Source: Escherichia coli (GTDB lineage Bacteria; Pseudomonadota; Gammaproteobacteria; Enterobacterales; Enterobacteriaceae). Taken from it: a DNA stretch of 64,000 nt. The translations under genes and the position numbers were made by a program. The notes under the pieces were generated by a model, which had not been told where the DNA came from, searched no databases, and saw nothing but the letters and a program-made list of their open reading frames with translations. Position 1 is the stretch's first letter. Each line of letters begins with the position of its first letter. The stretch is taken from assembly GCF_003334785.1 (NCBI RefSeq), contig NZ_QOWV01000017.1. The stretch is one strand, 5' to 3'. This document shows, piece by piece, positions 2,108 to 3,487 of this stretch.

Positions 2108-3487
2108 TCAACCTGCCACACTCCCCCACACCAGTTGCCCTTTATGGAACGTTGCGGTTCTCGGCGAGATACGCGCCACCGCCTCGGCGGAACAGGAGGC
2201 GTCCACCAGCACAAAGCTGGCGTCATCCTGCGCTTTTGGCCATACACGCTCGCCTTTTTCATTCAGCGGCAATACATCGCCAGTGGCTAAAAACAGCGAG
2301 CGGGAGAGGTTCTGTTCGTTAGGACGAATATAGAGCTGCGCGTACAGATTGGCTTTTTCCAGCATGTCGCCCAGACCATAAGGCGACCAGTGGTCGATAA
2401 CGCTGTCAGTGCCAGTCATCACTTTTACGCCTTTGTCGTGCAACTGTTTGAGCGGCATATGCAGCGTGCCAATCGGCACCGTCGAGGCGATAGAAATTTG
2501 TTGCACCACCATCCGGTTCGCCAGTTCATCTACCTGTTGCTCGTTGAGCGTTGCCAGCGCAAAGGCGTGACTGATGGTCAGCTTGCCCTTCAGCTGTGGC
2601 GTTTTCTCTACCGTTTCAACCATATAATTGATGGCTGCCACGCCTGCCGGAGTGGTTTCGTGCAGGTGAATATCGACGCCTTTGTCGTAGTCCAGCGCAA
2701 TCTGGAACATGGTGTCGAGGGATTTTTCCATCGCGCCATCAACACTGGTCGGGTCCAGGCCGCCGACGTAATGCGCCCCCGCCTGCATCGCTTCACGCAT
2801 TAAAGGTTCAGATTTCGACAGCAGCAAACCGTGCTGCGGGAAGGCGACGATTTCACACTCAAAGCCCGCCTGACGTCGCGCCAGCACCGCCTGCAAATTT
2901 TGCAGATTTTTCAGGCCGGAAACCGGTTCGATATTGCAGTGGCTGCGGGCAATGGTGGTGCCTTTCGACTGCAATAAATCAATCAGTTTTTCTGCCCGCT
3001 CCTGAGTGTACGGTTGCAGTTCCGGCAGCATTTTCTGCTCGAGTTTGATCATGTCCTGGATGGTGGTGCCTGCCGGACGATTGAGCGAGCGCCACGGCCC
3101 GCCGTAAAAGGTTTTGTCGAGATGAATATGCATGTCGCGGGTGGTGGGCAGCATCAGCTTACCGCCAGCGTCATAGTGCGGCAGCGTGGCGTCCGGATGC
3201 AGCTTGTTCTCGCGCAGGGCGACAATTTTGCCGTCCTGAATCTCCACGGTCTGGCGCGCCGTGCGGGTCTGCACCGCCACGCCATTTTCGTAGTCAAAAC
3301 CGGTTTCCAGCAGCACGTTATCGAGATAGTAATGCGGGTCAGTGATTTTCATGGTGTTGTTCGCTTCGCAGTTTAGGGTGCCAGCTACCGCCGCATGGGC
3401 GAGCGGCACAGAGGTACCAAACAGCGCGGCGGTGACCATCTTACCGCTCTGGCTCAGAAATTCACGGCGGCTATTGCTTTCTTTCAT
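2108..3487 (-). CDS. yahJ: Tat-exported amidohydrolase / deaminase-family protein
   Basis: 459 aa; N-terminal twin-arginine motif SRREFL followed by hydrophobic stretch ending AHA; metal-dependent hydrolase fold (HIHLD, HLHETT). Confidence 0.88.
   Translation of the reverse strand: MKESNSRREFLSQSGKMVTAALFGTSVPLAHAAVAGTLNCEANNTMKITDPHYYLDNVLLETGFDYENGVAVQTRTARQTVEIQDGKIVALRENKLHPDATLPHYDAGGKLMLPTTRDMHIHLDKTFYGGPWRSLNRPAGTTIQDMIKLEQKMLPELQPYTQERAEKLIDLLQSKGTTIARSHCNIEPVSGLKNLQNLQAVLARRQAGFECEIVAFPQHGLLLSKSEPLMREAMQAGAHYVGGLDPTSVDGAMEKSLDTMFQIALDYDKGVDIHLHETTPAGVAAINYMVETVEKTPQLKGKLTISHAFALATLNEQQVDELANRMVVQQISIASTVPIGTLHMPLKQLHDKGVKVMTGTDSVIDHWSPYGLGDMLEKANLYAQLYIRPNEQNLSRSLFLATGDVLPLNEKGERVWPKAQDDASFVLVDASCSAEAVARISPRTATFHKGQLVWGSVAG

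What the first reader, a model, noticed from the sequence alone, without database searches (positions are those of the whole stretch)
2108..3487. Tat-exported amidohydrolase (YahJ) paired with cytoplasmic partners
The YahJ N-terminus carries an SRREFL twin-arginine motif followed by a hydrophobic h-region and an AHA cleavage-like site, predicting export of a folded metallo-amidohydrolase. The adjacent yahI-yahG-yahF-yahE products have no signal peptides. A periplasmic ring-opening or deamination step followed by cytoplasmic ATP-yielding steps would need an unidentified importer for the intermediate.
Basis: partly seen in the sequence, partly recalled or inferred. Interest (0 to 1): 0.45.

Follow-up and report, generated by a model that had tools for sequence, protein, structure and literature searches.

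The report
Tat-exported YahJ deaminase, importer lost

Summary
Window 2108-3487 (- strand) encodes E. coli YahJ (459 aa), whose N-terminus has SRREFL, a 13-residue h-region and AHA|A. The strict motif occurs in no other ORF of the window. It is kept in 78 of 79 species loci with an intact N-terminus while the rest of the signal drifts.

YahJ was already listed as a Tat substrate, so this part is not new. It is a CodA/AtzC-type mononuclear amidohydrolase, so deamination is likelier than ring opening.

YahE/F/G/I are paralogues of AllH/F/G/K (oxamate carbamoyltransferase plus carbamate kinase) and have no signal peptides.

- In 38 of 47 species with the full cluster, a 516-aa transporter with the 7+7-TM carrier fold lies between yahG and yahI. 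E. coli has only a REP-filled gap there.
- One clade (Escherichia, Kluyvera, Klebsiella, Raoultella, Pseudocitrobacter) lost this transporter once and carries yahC (DUF1097) instead. Its enzymes remain under strong purifying selection.
- Brevibacillus and Bosea have the same module with cytoplasmic deaminases.

Interest is modest.

The parts
2108..3487 (-). yahJ coding sequence (459 aa plus stop): precursor of a Tat-exported CodA/AtzC-type amidohydrolase
   Evidence: ORF listing. RefSeq annotates it as 'yahJ: amidohydrolase family protein'. NCBIfam PRK06846 scores 712.7 bits against a cut-off of 447. Pfam Amidohydro_3 and Amidohydro_1 match.
3392..3487 (-). Codons 1-32: the twin-arginine signal peptide MKESNSRREFLSQSGKMVTAALFGTSVPLAHA. 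The SRREFL codons lie at 3455-3472. Cleavage is predicted after A32.
   Evidence: Read directly from the sequence. Motif statistics. RR conserved in 78 of 79 intact species loci and 114 of 120 database homologues. Listed as a Tat signal in PMC7549933.
2111..3391 (-). Mature catalytic domain, residues 33-459. It carries HxH (H120, H122), H274-x-H276-E277, H307 and D361.
   Evidence: These columns are invariant across 15 homologues of 34-89% identity. They align to the equivalent motifs of AtzC (2qt3) and 6nbo. Relatives without a signal peptide begin at about residue 50 of YahJ.
3497..4447 (-). yahI, a carbamate kinase with no signal peptide. Its stop codon is 9 nt upstream of the yahJ start and overlaps the yahJ Shine-Dalgarno sequence.
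   Evidence: NCBIfam PRK12352 scores 648.9 bits against a cut-off of 266. 38% identical to AllK/YbcF. Spacing read.
4448..4682 (.). yahG-yahI intergenic gap made of REP elements (the former 'yahH'). In most other genera a 516-aa permease gene occupies this position.
   Evidence: Two copies each of GCCGGATGCGGCGTGAACGCCTTATCCGGCCTAC and GTAGGCCTGATAAGCGTAGCGCATCAGGC. Permease gene at this position in 38 species. No permease homologue anywhere in the window by tblastn. REP23/yahH is described in PMC11551758 and PMC4765031.
4683..6101 (-). yahG, paralogue of AllG (DUF1116)
   Evidence: 45% identity to YlbE/AllG, E = 5e-120. Pfam AllG on the orthologues.
6101..7648 (-). yahF, paralogue of AllF/FdrA
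   Evidence: 38% identity to FdrA, E = 2e-101. NCBIfam NF004760 scores 487.7 bits against a cut-off of 433.
7638..8501 (-). yahE, paralogue of AllH (DUF2877). It is the fastest-evolving member of the cluster.
   Evidence: 25% identity to YlbF/AllH, E = 2e-10. Pfam AllH on the orthologues. Identity to orthologues is 28-61%, against 70-98% for its neighbours.
8541..9146 (-). yahD, a 201-aa ankyrin-repeat protein with no signal peptide and the first gene of the operon. It accompanies both YahJ-only and module-only versions of the cluster.
   Evidence: Ankyrin matches. Next to yahJ without yahEFGI in Cedecea, Erwinia and Pragia. Next to a 62%-identical YahJ in a metagenome contig, where it is 39% identical. 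Heads the module in Brevibacillus and Janthinobacterium, which have no YahJ.
9404..9901 (+). yahC, a small DUF1097 inner-membrane protein transcribed divergently. It is present only in clusters that lack the permease and is the candidate substitute importer.
   Evidence: ORF. RefSeq annotation DUF1097. Present in 8 of 8 permease-less clusters whose upstream region is held and in 0 of 38 permease-bearing ones. Literature hints link DUF1097 to nucleoside or pyrimidine metabolism.
9993..10925 (+). yahB, a LysR-type regulator on the opposite strand to the yahD-J operon, with yahC between them in the window. It is the presumed regulator of the cluster.
   Evidence: ORF. Annotation. Conserved at this position in nearly all clusters, including those with only yahD and yahJ.

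Best explanation
YahJ is made with a cleavable twin-arginine signal. It folds, and probably takes up its single metal ion, in the cytoplasm. The Tat system then exports it and it works as a soluble periplasmic hydrolase.

Its active site is of the cytosine-deaminase/AtzC type. It most likely removes an amino or imino group from an external nitrogen-rich heterocycle or amidine, releasing ammonia. The product is an oxo or ureido compound.

That product is then imported. In the ancestral cluster the importer is the 516-aa 7+7-TM carrier encoded between yahG and yahI. In the E. coli-type cluster that gene is gone, so import would fall to YahC (DUF1097) or to a transporter encoded elsewhere.

In the cytoplasm YahE/F/G, paralogues of the oxamate carbamoyltransferase AllH/F/G, would split off the carbamoyl group with phosphate. 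YahI (carbamate kinase) would then convert carbamoyl phosphate plus ADP into ATP, CO2 and NH3.

The logic resembles the arginine and agmatine deiminase pathways, except that here the first step happens outside the cytoplasmic membrane.

Shown here: the signal anatomy and its conservation, the family assignments, the gene order, the presence or absence of the permease, and purifying selection.

Inferred: export in vivo, deamination as the reaction, the order of the steps, the identity of the importer, and the substrate, which remains unknown.
For: Tat signal: motif, h-region and AxA site. RR is kept in 78 of 79 intact species loci while the rest of the signal diverges. YahJ is listed and predicted as a Tat substrate in PMC7549933 and PMC3027627.

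Enzyme type:
- NCBIfam PRK06846 above its cut-off, with weaker matches to cytosine-deaminase models.
- The closest solved structures are 6nbo and AtzC (E = 2e-43 and 4e-30), then CodA.
- HxH, HxHE, SHAF and TDS are invariant.

Module: YahF, YahG, YahE and YahI are 38, 45, 25 and 38% identical to AllF, AllG, AllH and AllK. AllFGH was shown to be oxamic transcarbamylase (PMC11326118).

Operon: 9 nt separate yahI and yahJ. yahDEFGIJ is treated as an operon with ribosome footprints in PMC4765031.

Importer:
- The permease gene lies between yahG and yahI in 38 of 47 complete clusters.
- It has at least 10 hydrophobic segments.
- The AF2 model (pLDDT 78.8) has the two short beta-strands typical of 7+7 carriers.
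- Foldseek finds only NCS2, AzgA, SulP and SLC4-type carriers, each with probability 1.0.

A deaminase recurs in the module. Brevibacillus has a 152-aa CDA-fold deaminase between the carbamate kinase and the permease. Bosea has a signal-less, YahJ-like amidohydrolase next to the module.

The cluster is not decaying. dN/dS is 0.02-0.10 for yahJ, yahI, yahG and yahF within the permease-less clade. A delta-yahJ ExPEC mutant had a competitive index of 0.70, p = 0.02.
Against: - No experiment here shows export, activity or substrate.
- 17 species carry YahJ, with its Tat signal, and no module within 10 kb. 6 species carry only yahD and yahJ.
- Conversely, Janthinobacterium, Paenibacillus and the E. 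coli IncF-plasmid copy have the module with the permease but no YahJ. The two parts can therefore work apart.
- No ring-opening enzyme is encoded in the cluster. If the deaminated product is a ring, the route to a terminal ureide is unexplained.
- The permease matches no Pfam, NCBIfam or PDB sequence model, so its substrate class is open: nucleobase or anion.
- The link between yahC and loss of the permease rests on one evolutionary event.
- The YahC structure model was too poor to use.
Confidence: 0.5

Rival explanations
1. YahJ works on its own. It is a periplasmic deaminase that scavenges ammonia from, or detoxifies, an external compound, and its organic product is not fed to YahEFG/YahI. 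Its place at the end of the operon reflects shared regulation by YahB or history, not a shared pathway.
For: YahJ keeps its Tat signal in 17 species where no yahD/E/F/G/I lies within 10 kb, and in 6 more that have only yahD. Module-only clusters exist in Janthinobacterium, Paenibacillus and E. coli IncF plasmids. The yahB-yahD-yahJ trio looks like a unit into which yahE-yahI was inserted, or from which it was deleted.
Against: 47 of 70 classifiable species keep yahJ directly after yahI. In the window the two genes are only 9 nt apart. Unrelated deaminases sit in or beside the same module in Brevibacillus and Bosea, which points to a deamination step belonging to this chemistry.
Confidence: 0.25
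2. The order is reversed. The cytoplasmic module handles an imported ureide. Its amide by-product, the counterpart of oxamate, is excreted, and periplasmic YahJ hydrolyses it to recover the last nitrogen.
For: AllFGH leaves oxamate as an end product (PMC11326118). YahJ is the last gene of the operon. Module-with-permease clusters that lack YahJ show the module has its own imported substrate.
Against: The YahJ catalytic residues match amidine and amino-heterocycle deaminases (CodA, AtzC) rather than simple amidases. The deaminases in Brevibacillus and Bosea are cytoplasmic, which does not fit an extracellular clean-up step.
Confidence: 0.1
3. In E. coli the cluster is a crippled remnant. Loss of the permease and invasion by REP elements broke the pathway, so the compartment puzzle has no physiological meaning in this organism.
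For: The permease is absent from the window and from the chromosomal cluster. REP elements fill its place. All of these genes are still classed as uncharacterised (PMC11551758).
Against: yahJ is full length in 5036 of 5426 complete genomes. dN/dS is 0.02-0.10 across the permease-less clade, which spans five genera. The operon is translated in EHEC. Delta-yahJ lowers ExPEC fitness slightly.
Confidence: 0.1
4. The twin-arginine region does not lead to soluble periplasmic YahJ. The protein stays cytoplasmic, is made from an internal start (Met46), or remains membrane-anchored by an uncleaved signal.
For: Met46 lies just before the point where signal-less relatives begin. Most of the wider family (45% identity or less) is cytoplasmic.
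Against: Both RR and a small-x-small site are conserved. Met46 is not conserved, being absent from the Klebsiella, Aeromonas and Pragia sequences. No Shine-Dalgarno sequence precedes it...GCGAAGCGAACAACACC-ATG. There is no lipobox: the residue before Cys40 is Asn, and the Cys itself is not conserved.
Confidence: 0.05

Closest known systems
AllF-AllG-AllH oxamic (oxamate) transcarbamylase with AllK/YbcF carbamate kinase, the oxalurate branch of anaerobic allantoin degradation in E. coli (PMC11326118, PMC9843812)
   Same: YahF, YahG, YahE and YahI are full-length paralogues of AllF, AllG, AllH and AllK at 38, 45, 25 and 38% identity. The three-subunit-plus-kinase make-up is the same. The expected chemistry is phosphorolysis of a carbamoyl group followed by ATP formation.
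   Different: - The gene order differs: yahE comes first here, whereas allH comes last.
- The yah cluster adds an ankyrin protein, a Tat-exported amidohydrolase and, ancestrally, a permease.
- The all cluster makes its substrate inside the cell through AllD and has no exported enzyme.
- The Yah substrate is unknown.
AtzC (N-isopropylammelide isopropylaminohydrolase) and CodA (cytosine deaminase), mononuclear members of the amidohydrolase superfamily
   Same: They are the best solved-structure matches: 6nbo at E = 2e-43, AtzC at 4e-30 and CodA at about 1e-16 to 7e-20. The HxH, HxH(E/D), SHA and D motifs and the AFPQ substrate-loop motif are shared.
   Different: AtzC and CodA are cytoplasmic and have no signal peptide. 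YahJ has a 32-residue Tat signal plus a linker of about 15 residues. YahJ scores far below the cut-offs of the cytosine-deaminase models (101 bits against 438, and 81 against 483), so it is not a CodA orthologue.
Organophosphate hydrolase (OPH/PTE) of Brevundimonas diminuta, an amidohydrolase-superfamily enzyme exported by Tat (recalled from Gorla et al. 2009; not checked here)
   Same: It is a precedent for a metal-containing TIM-barrel amidohydrolase crossing the membrane folded, through Tat.
   Different: OPH is binuclear and, as I recall, remains membrane-associated as a lipoprotein. YahJ is of the mononuclear type, has an AxA site and has no lipobox.
Arginine deiminase (ArcABCD) and agmatine deiminase pathways (general knowledge)
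   Same: The logic is the same: a deiminase makes a ureide, a carbamoyltransferase makes carbamoyl phosphate, carbamate kinase makes ATP, and a dedicated membrane carrier is encoded in the cluster.
   Different: All of their enzymes are cytoplasmic. The deiminase and the transcarbamoylase belong to unrelated families (guanidino-modifying fold and OTC/ATC fold). Here the first enzyme is exported.
PaoABC (YagTSR) aldehyde oxidoreductase, encoded in the same window and exported by Tat through a signal on one subunit only (PMC4273604, seen as a title)
   Same: It is another Tat-signal protein in the same window, at 44321-45010. It shows that partners without a signal can be co-exported.
   Different: Nothing indicates that YahD, E, F, G or I ride along with YahJ. 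The same module works in the Gram-positive Brevibacillus, which has no periplasm.

Membership tests
Twin-arginine (Tat) signal peptides | S/T-R-R-x-F-L-K consensus with consecutive arginines near the N-terminus | tested here: met
   S6-R7-R8-E9-F10-L11, with Ser in place of the final Lys. It is the only ORF in the window with the strict motif.
Twin-arginine (Tat) signal peptides | Moderately hydrophobic, uncharged h-region of about 12-20 residues, followed by a small-x-small signal peptidase I site | tested here: met
   The h-region MVTAALFGTSVPL has 13 residues and a mean Kyte-Doolittle value of 1.55, and is followed by A-H-A|A. No dedicated predictor (TatP, SignalP) was available here. TatP predicted it in PMC7549933.
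Twin-arginine (Tat) signal peptides | The RR motif is conserved among orthologues while the rest of the signal diverges | tested here: met
   114 of 120 database homologues. 78 of 79 species loci with an intact N-terminus, the exception being RH in Xenorhabdus szentirmaii.
Twin-arginine (Tat) signal peptides | TatABC-dependent export in vivo | not testable with these tools
   It needs fusions or cell fractionation in tat mutants. I recall reporter-fusion tests of the YahJ signal by Tullman-Ercek et al. 2007, but the paper could not be opened.
Amidohydrolase superfamily, CodA/AtzC-like mononuclear subgroup | Match to curated family models | tested here: met
   NCBIfam PRK06846 'amidohydrolase' scores 712.7 bits against a cut-off of 447. 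Pfam Amidohydro_3 at 1e-13 and Amidohydro_1 at 7e-7.
Amidohydrolase superfamily, CodA/AtzC-like mononuclear subgroup | Metal-ligand and catalytic set: HxH after strand 1, His and an acid in HxH(E/D), a second His (SHA), and Asp after strand 8 | tested here: met
   H120, H122, H274, H276, E277 (nearly invariant), H307 and D361 are conserved in 15 homologues. They align with the equivalent AtzC and 6nbo motifs. The assignment of ligand roles rests on knowledge of the AtzC and CodA structures.
Cytosine deaminase (CodA) orthologues | Score above the curated cut-off of the cytosine-deaminase models | tested here: not met
   PRK07572 scores 101.2 bits against 438, PRK09230 scores 80.9 against 483, and PRK07583 scores 67.3 against 403. 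YahJ should not be named a cytosine deaminase.
AllFGH-type carbamoyltransferase plus carbamate kinase module (the neighbours) | Three subunits homologous to AllF, AllG and AllH, plus a carbamate kinase, encoded together | tested here: met
   Pairwise BLASTP gives E = 2e-101, 5e-120, 2e-10 and 5e-57. NF004760 and NF009007 score above their cut-offs.
AllFGH-type carbamoyltransferase plus carbamate kinase module (the neighbours) | Oxalurate-dependent formation of carbamoyl phosphate | not testable with these tools
   An enzyme assay is needed. The yah paralogues are not mentioned in PMC11326118.
NCS2/AzgA/SulP 7+7-TM inverted-repeat carriers (the permease found in relatives) | Fold: 14 TM segments in two inverted repeats, with short beta-strands in TM3 and TM10 | tested here: met
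   The AF2 model has pLDDT 78.8 and strands at residues 82-85 and 304-307. The top 50 Foldseek matches in the PDB are all SVCT1, UraA, BicA, SLC26, AZG or Bor1, each with probability 1.0 and TM-score 0.35-0.6.
NCS2/AzgA/SulP 7+7-TM inverted-repeat carriers (the permease found in relatives) | Sequence membership in a described family model | tested here: not met
   No Pfam hit, no NCBIfam hit and no PDB hit by sequence or profile. Only the sources' own names, 'xanthine permease' and 'AGZA family', suggest membership. It is best described as carrier-fold with family unassigned.

The most novel reading that the evidence does not exclude
The yah cluster encodes a new deiminase-type, ATP-yielding catabolic route for an external nitrogen-rich compound, either an aminated heterocycle or an acyl-guanidine/ureide related to oxalurate. 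The route is split across the inner membrane.

- A Tat-exported CodA/AtzC-like deaminase acts outside.
- A previously unclassified 7+7-TM carrier imports the product.
- An AllFGH-like phosphorolytic carbamoyltransferase and a carbamate kinase harvest ATP inside.

In the Escherichia/Klebsiella/Kluyvera clade the small DUF1097 protein YahC has taken over the import step. This would give the DUF1097 family its first function.
Probability: 0.25. Interest if true: 0.6.

Novelty: new member of a known kind. Interest (0 to 1): 0.38.

Why it matters
The six yah genes are among the densest patches of uncharacterised genes left in E. coli K-12 (PMC11551758). The analysis ties them to the recently solved AllFGH/AllK chemistry. 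It also shows that the ancestral operon carried its own importer. Together these turn a vague 'putative deaminase' into a testable two-compartment pathway, with clear genetic handles:
- yahB for finding the inducer;
- yahC against the Citrobacter permease for uptake;
- yahJ RR-to-KK for export.

It would also give a first functional lead for two unassigned membrane-protein families. One is the 516-aa carrier, which is 65-90% conserved from Enterobacterales to Bacillales. The other is DUF1097.

The small fitness defect of delta-yahJ ExPEC in mice hints that the substrate occurs in the host. The Tat signal itself, however, is old news.

Tried and rejected
- **Promoter and terminator scan of 1700-10000.** Nothing on the - strand, and counts were below the shuffle expectation. 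Uninformative.
- **Lipoprotein idea.** Many orthologues have a Cys 8-12 residues after the AxA site. The residue before it is Asn or Thr and the Cys is not conserved. Rejected.
- **Internal start at Met46 giving a cytoplasmic isoform.** No Shine-Dalgarno sequence precedes it and the Met is not conserved. Kept only as a minor rival.
- **YahD as a Tat hitchhiker or signal-specific chaperone.** Suggested by the conserved yahD-yahJ pairing. Weakened because YahD also heads YahJ-less modules in the Gram-positive Brevibacillus and in Janthinobacterium. Its role stays unexplained.
- **yahC replacing the permease through repeated independent swaps.** The tree shows one clade and therefore one event. 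This is only weak support.
- **Structure of YahC.** The AF2 model from 9 sequences reached pLDDT 57, too poor for a fold search.
- **Sequence-based family assignment of the permease.** It failed against Pfam, NCBIfam and the PDB.
- **Tullman-Ercek et al. 2007.** The paper could not be opened.
- **One bad dN/dS value.** YahF against E. albertii gave 0.81. This contradicts the 96% protein identity and is an alignment artefact of a truncated HSP. Disregarded.
- **Substrate.** No candidate could be tested. Creatinine, ammelide or 5-azacytosine-type triazines, guanylurea/biuret, and parabanate/oxalurate are guesses from chemistry only.
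Full report
**1. What is there**

The window is the yah region of an E. coli chromosome. The ORF at 2108-3487 (- strand, 459 aa) is yahJ. Upstream on the same strand lie, in order:
- yahD, an ankyrin-repeat protein (8541-9146);
- yahE (7638-8501);
- yahF (6101-7648);
- yahG (4683-6101);
- a 235-bp gap made of REP elements (4448-4682);
- yahI (3497-4447).

Only 9 nt separate the yahI stop from the yahJ start, and the yahI stop overlaps the yahJ Shine-Dalgarno sequence. yahC (DUF1097, 9404-9901) and the LysR-type gene yahB (9993-10925) are transcribed divergently.

**2.

YahJ starts MKESNSRREFLSQSGKMVTAALFGTSVPLAHA|AVAGT. That gives a polar n-region, S-R-R-x-F-L, a 13-residue uncharged h-region of moderate hydrophobicity (1.55), and an A-x-A site.

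The strict motif occurs in no other of the 102 six-frame ORFs of at least 100 aa in the window. Amino-acid composition predicts about 0.24 such N-termini in a 4300-protein proteome.

The motif is conserved where the rest of the signal is not:
- 114 of 120 close database homologues carry it. The exceptions are four yahI-yahJ fusion calls, one truncated protein and one RH variant.
- Of the 80 species-level genomic loci, one is truncated by the contig end. 78 of the other 79 keep RR and one has RH.

The five neighbouring products have no RR motif and no signal-like N-terminus.

**3. This part is already known**

YahJ appears in published Tat-substrate tables:
- TatP predicted it in an ExPEC strain, with exactly this signal peptide. 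There delta-yahJ gave a competitive index of 0.70 (p = 0.02) in mice (PMC7549933).
- It is listed in an E. coli/Salmonella comparison of predicted Tat substrates (PMC3027627).

From memory, its signal peptide was also among those tested with reporter fusions by Tullman-Ercek et al. 2007. I could not open that paper, so I give it no weight.

**4. What kind of enzyme YahJ is**

- It passes the NCBIfam subfamily model PRK06846 (712.7 bits, cut-off 447).
- It falls far below the cut-offs of the cytosine-deaminase models.
- Pfam finds Amidohydro_3 and Amidohydro_1.
- The nearest solved structures are an AtzC-like protein (6nbo, E = 2e-43), AtzC itself (about 4e-30) and CodA (about 1e-16 to 7e-20).
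- H120-x-H122, H274-x-H276-E277, S306-H307 and D361 are invariant or nearly so across 15 homologues down to 34% identity. They line up with the corresponding AtzC motifs.

This is the mononuclear deaminase/aminohydrolase arrangement (knowledge of the CodA and AtzC structures). It is not the carboxylated-lysine binuclear centre of the ring-opening hydantoinase, allantoinase and dihydroorotase group. Deamination, or removal of an amine, is therefore more likely than ring opening.

**5. Export is peculiar to one clade**

In a search of 1.84 billion cluster representatives, only the nearest relatives have Tat-like N-termini. These are P0122, P0123, P0126, P0134, P0146 and P0214, plus an R-K variant in P0124. 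Most relatives at 45% identity or less are about 400 aa long and begin at YahJ residue 50 or thereabouts, so they are cytoplasmic.

**6. The partners**

YahF, YahG, YahE and YahI are full-length paralogues of AllF (FdrA), AllG (YlbE), AllH (YlbF) and AllK (YbcF), at 38, 45, 25 and 38% identity. AllFGH was shown in 2024 to be oxamic transcarbamylase: oxalurate + Pi gives carbamoyl phosphate + oxamate. The kinase then makes ATP (PMC11326118, PMC9843812). Those papers do not mention the yah paralogues.

**7. The missing importer**

I collected the YahJ neighbourhoods of 80 species and scored them with tblastn. Seventy loci could be classified:

| Arrangement | Species |
|---|---|
| yahB <- -> yahD-E-F-G-[516-aa gene]-yahI-yahJ | 38 |
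| Same cluster without the extra gene | 9 |
| yahB-yahD-yahJ only | 6 |
| yahJ alone | 17 |

The extra gene lies exactly where E. coli has the REP gap. It is present in Citrobacter, Enterobacter, Lelliottia, Leclercia, Serratia, Buttiauxella, Atlantibacter, Providencia, Proteus, Budvicia, Aeromonas and others.

Properties of its product:
- It has at least 10 strongly hydrophobic segments.
- It matches no Pfam, NCBIfam or PDB sequence model.
- The AlphaFold model (pLDDT 78.8) shows the two short intramembrane beta-strands of 7+7 inverted-repeat carriers.
- Its 50 best Foldseek matches are all such carriers: SVCT1, UraA, BicA, SLC26Dg, prestin, AZG1/2 and Bor1, each with probability 1.0.
- Sources name it 'xanthine permease' or 'AGZA family'.

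It is a credible importer, but its substrate class is open. It could carry a nucleobase-like molecule or an anion such as a ureide.

**8. What happened in E. coli**

The 9 permease-less clusters belong to Escherichia, Pseudocitrobacter, Kluyvera, Klebsiella spallanzanii, an uncultured Klebsiella and Raoultella terrigena. All 8 whose upstream region is held carry yahC between yahB and yahD. None of the 38 permease-bearing clusters does.

In a neighbour-joining tree of concatenated YahF+G+I+J, the eight permease-less clusters included in the tree (seven fetched loci plus the window) form one clade nested among permease-bearing clusters. The permease was therefore lost once, and yahC appears on the same branch. 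This is compatible with YahC taking over import, but it counts as a single event.

The enzymes stayed under strong purifying selection afterwards. dN/dS is 0.02-0.10 for yahJ, yahI, yahG and yahF against Kluyvera, Klebsiella and E. albertii. One artefactual YahF value was disregarded.

Two papers give independent hints that DUF1097 proteins move nucleosides or bases:
- The paralogue YcdZ was predicted to be a CytR-regulated transporter and was proposed to be named 'NupT' (PMC3454398).
- A DUF1097 gene precedes preTA-hydA in Anaerostipes (PMC11036815).

My structure model of YahC was too poor to use.

**9. The module outside the Enterobacterales**

The carrier is 65-80% identical in Firmicutes and in alpha- and beta-proteobacteria, and it travels with the AllH/F/G-like genes and the carbamate kinase:

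| Organism | Gene order |
|---|---|
| Brevibacillus | PucR \| ankyrin-AllH-AllF-AllG-NCS1 permease-carbamate kinase-152-aa CDA-fold deaminase-carrier |
| Janthinobacterium | ankyrin-AllH-AllF-AllG-carrier-carbamate kinase-LysR |
| Bosea | PucR \| carrier-ankyrin/TPR protein-AllH-AllF-AllG-carbamate kinase, with a signal-less amidohydrolase next to it |
| Paenibacillus | AllH-AllF-AllG-carbamate kinase-carrier-unknown-M20 amidohydrolase-NCS2 permease |

The NCS1 permease in Brevibacillus is allantoin-permease-like but scores below that model's cut-off. The Bosea amidohydrolase is 30% identical to YahJ and passes PRK05985.

The invariant core is therefore carrier + AllHFG-like enzyme + carbamate kinase, in a purine/ureide-type setting. 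A deaminase recurs, but it is non-orthologous and cytoplasmic elsewhere. Putting that step outside the membrane is special to the YahJ clade.

**10. Best model, limits and rivals**

The most likely reading (confidence about 0.5 for the whole chain, about 0.9 for Tat export alone) has four steps:
1. Periplasmic YahJ deaminates an external amino-heterocycle or amidine.
2. The product enters through the carrier, or in E. coli through YahC or an unlinked transporter.
3. YahEFG transfers its carbamoyl group to phosphate.
4. YahI makes ATP.

Points against a strict linear pathway:
- YahJ, with its Tat signal, stands alone or only with yahD in 23 species.
- The module exists without YahJ.
- No ring-opening enzyme is encoded in the cluster.

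The rivals are:
- an independent periplasmic scavenging or detoxifying deaminase (0.25);
- reversed order, with YahJ acting on an excreted amide (0.10);
- a crippled remnant in E. coli (0.10);
- a non-exported or membrane-anchored YahJ (0.05).

**11. Verdict**

It is sharpened by three results: the importer is encoded in the ancestral operon, it was lost in the E. coli lineage, and the deaminase step is cytoplasmic in other phyla. YahJ is a new, still uncharacterised member of known kinds: Tat substrates, CodA/AtzC-type amidohydrolases, and AllFGH/carbamate-kinase modules. Interest is modest at 0.38. It would be higher if the split pathway and the YahC takeover were shown.

Noticed in passing
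window 4448-4682: The yahG-yahI gap consists of two REP pairs. At 235 bp it is shorter than the 421-bp gap of K-12, which holds the discarded ORF 'yahH'. It marks the spot where 38 other species carry a 516-aa permease gene, so the REP elements fill a deletion scar.
   Followed up: yes
window 3422-3430 (codons 20-22 of yahJ): The window allele of YahJ has two alanines (TAALF) where K-12 and the main E. coli protein cluster have three (TAAALF). This gives 459 aa instead of 460. No complete E. coli genome in the collection matched the query at 100%; the best matches were 99.8%. The h-region is one residue shorter, with unknown effect.
   Followed up: partly
window 44321-45010 (+): A second twin-arginine protein is encoded in the window. 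The ORF starts [41 protein letters not shown], which is YagT/PaoA, the signal-bearing subunit of the Tat 'hitchhiker' enzyme PaoABC. It differs by one residue from the sequence printed in PMC7549933.
   Followed up: no
L096 (E. coli IncF plasmid NZ_CP128971.1, 42875-51308) and L012: 142 of 5426 complete E. coli genomes carry a second yah-like cluster, with 106 copies on plasmids and 46 on chromosomes. It is about 86% identical to the Citrobacter type and reads LysR | ankyrin-AllH-AllF-AllG-permease-carbamate kinase. It ends in IS elements and lacks yahJ. In L012 it lies next to aerobactin genes.
   Followed up: partly
L014 and L015 (Pseudocitrobacter) against window 2108-9901: The cluster is a mosaic. 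Pseudocitrobacter YahF, G, I and J are 95-98% identical to the E. coli proteins, but YahC, D and E are only 56-73% identical. This suggests a recent exchange with a breakpoint near the yahE/yahF junction. In every genus YahE is much more diverged (28-61%) than its neighbours.
   Followed up: no
P0003, P0004, P0005, P0008 (database proteins of 677-780 aa): These are single-member database entries that fuse YahI and YahJ into one protein. They probably arise from frameshifts or read-through across the 9-nt spacer in assemblies, not from real fusions.
   Followed up: no
L055 and P0090 (Xenorhabdus szentirmaii): The YahJ orthologue has N-R-H-E-F-L in place of R-R. It is the only natural loss of the second arginine seen among the loci with an intact N-terminus, and here yahJ is not next to the module.
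   Followed up: no
L003 and L060 (Shewanella): A YahJ that is 76-77% identical to the E. coli protein sits alone in Shewanella. In L003 it lies next to a fragment of a tyrosine recombinase, which suggests horizontal acquisition of yahJ by itself.
   Followed up: partly
window 8541-9146 (yahD) and L093, L094, L095: An ankyrin-repeat protein is the most constant companion of both the deaminase and the carbamoyltransferase module across phyla. In Bosea it is fused to TPR repeats. None of the explanations considered here accounts for its role.
   Followed up: partly
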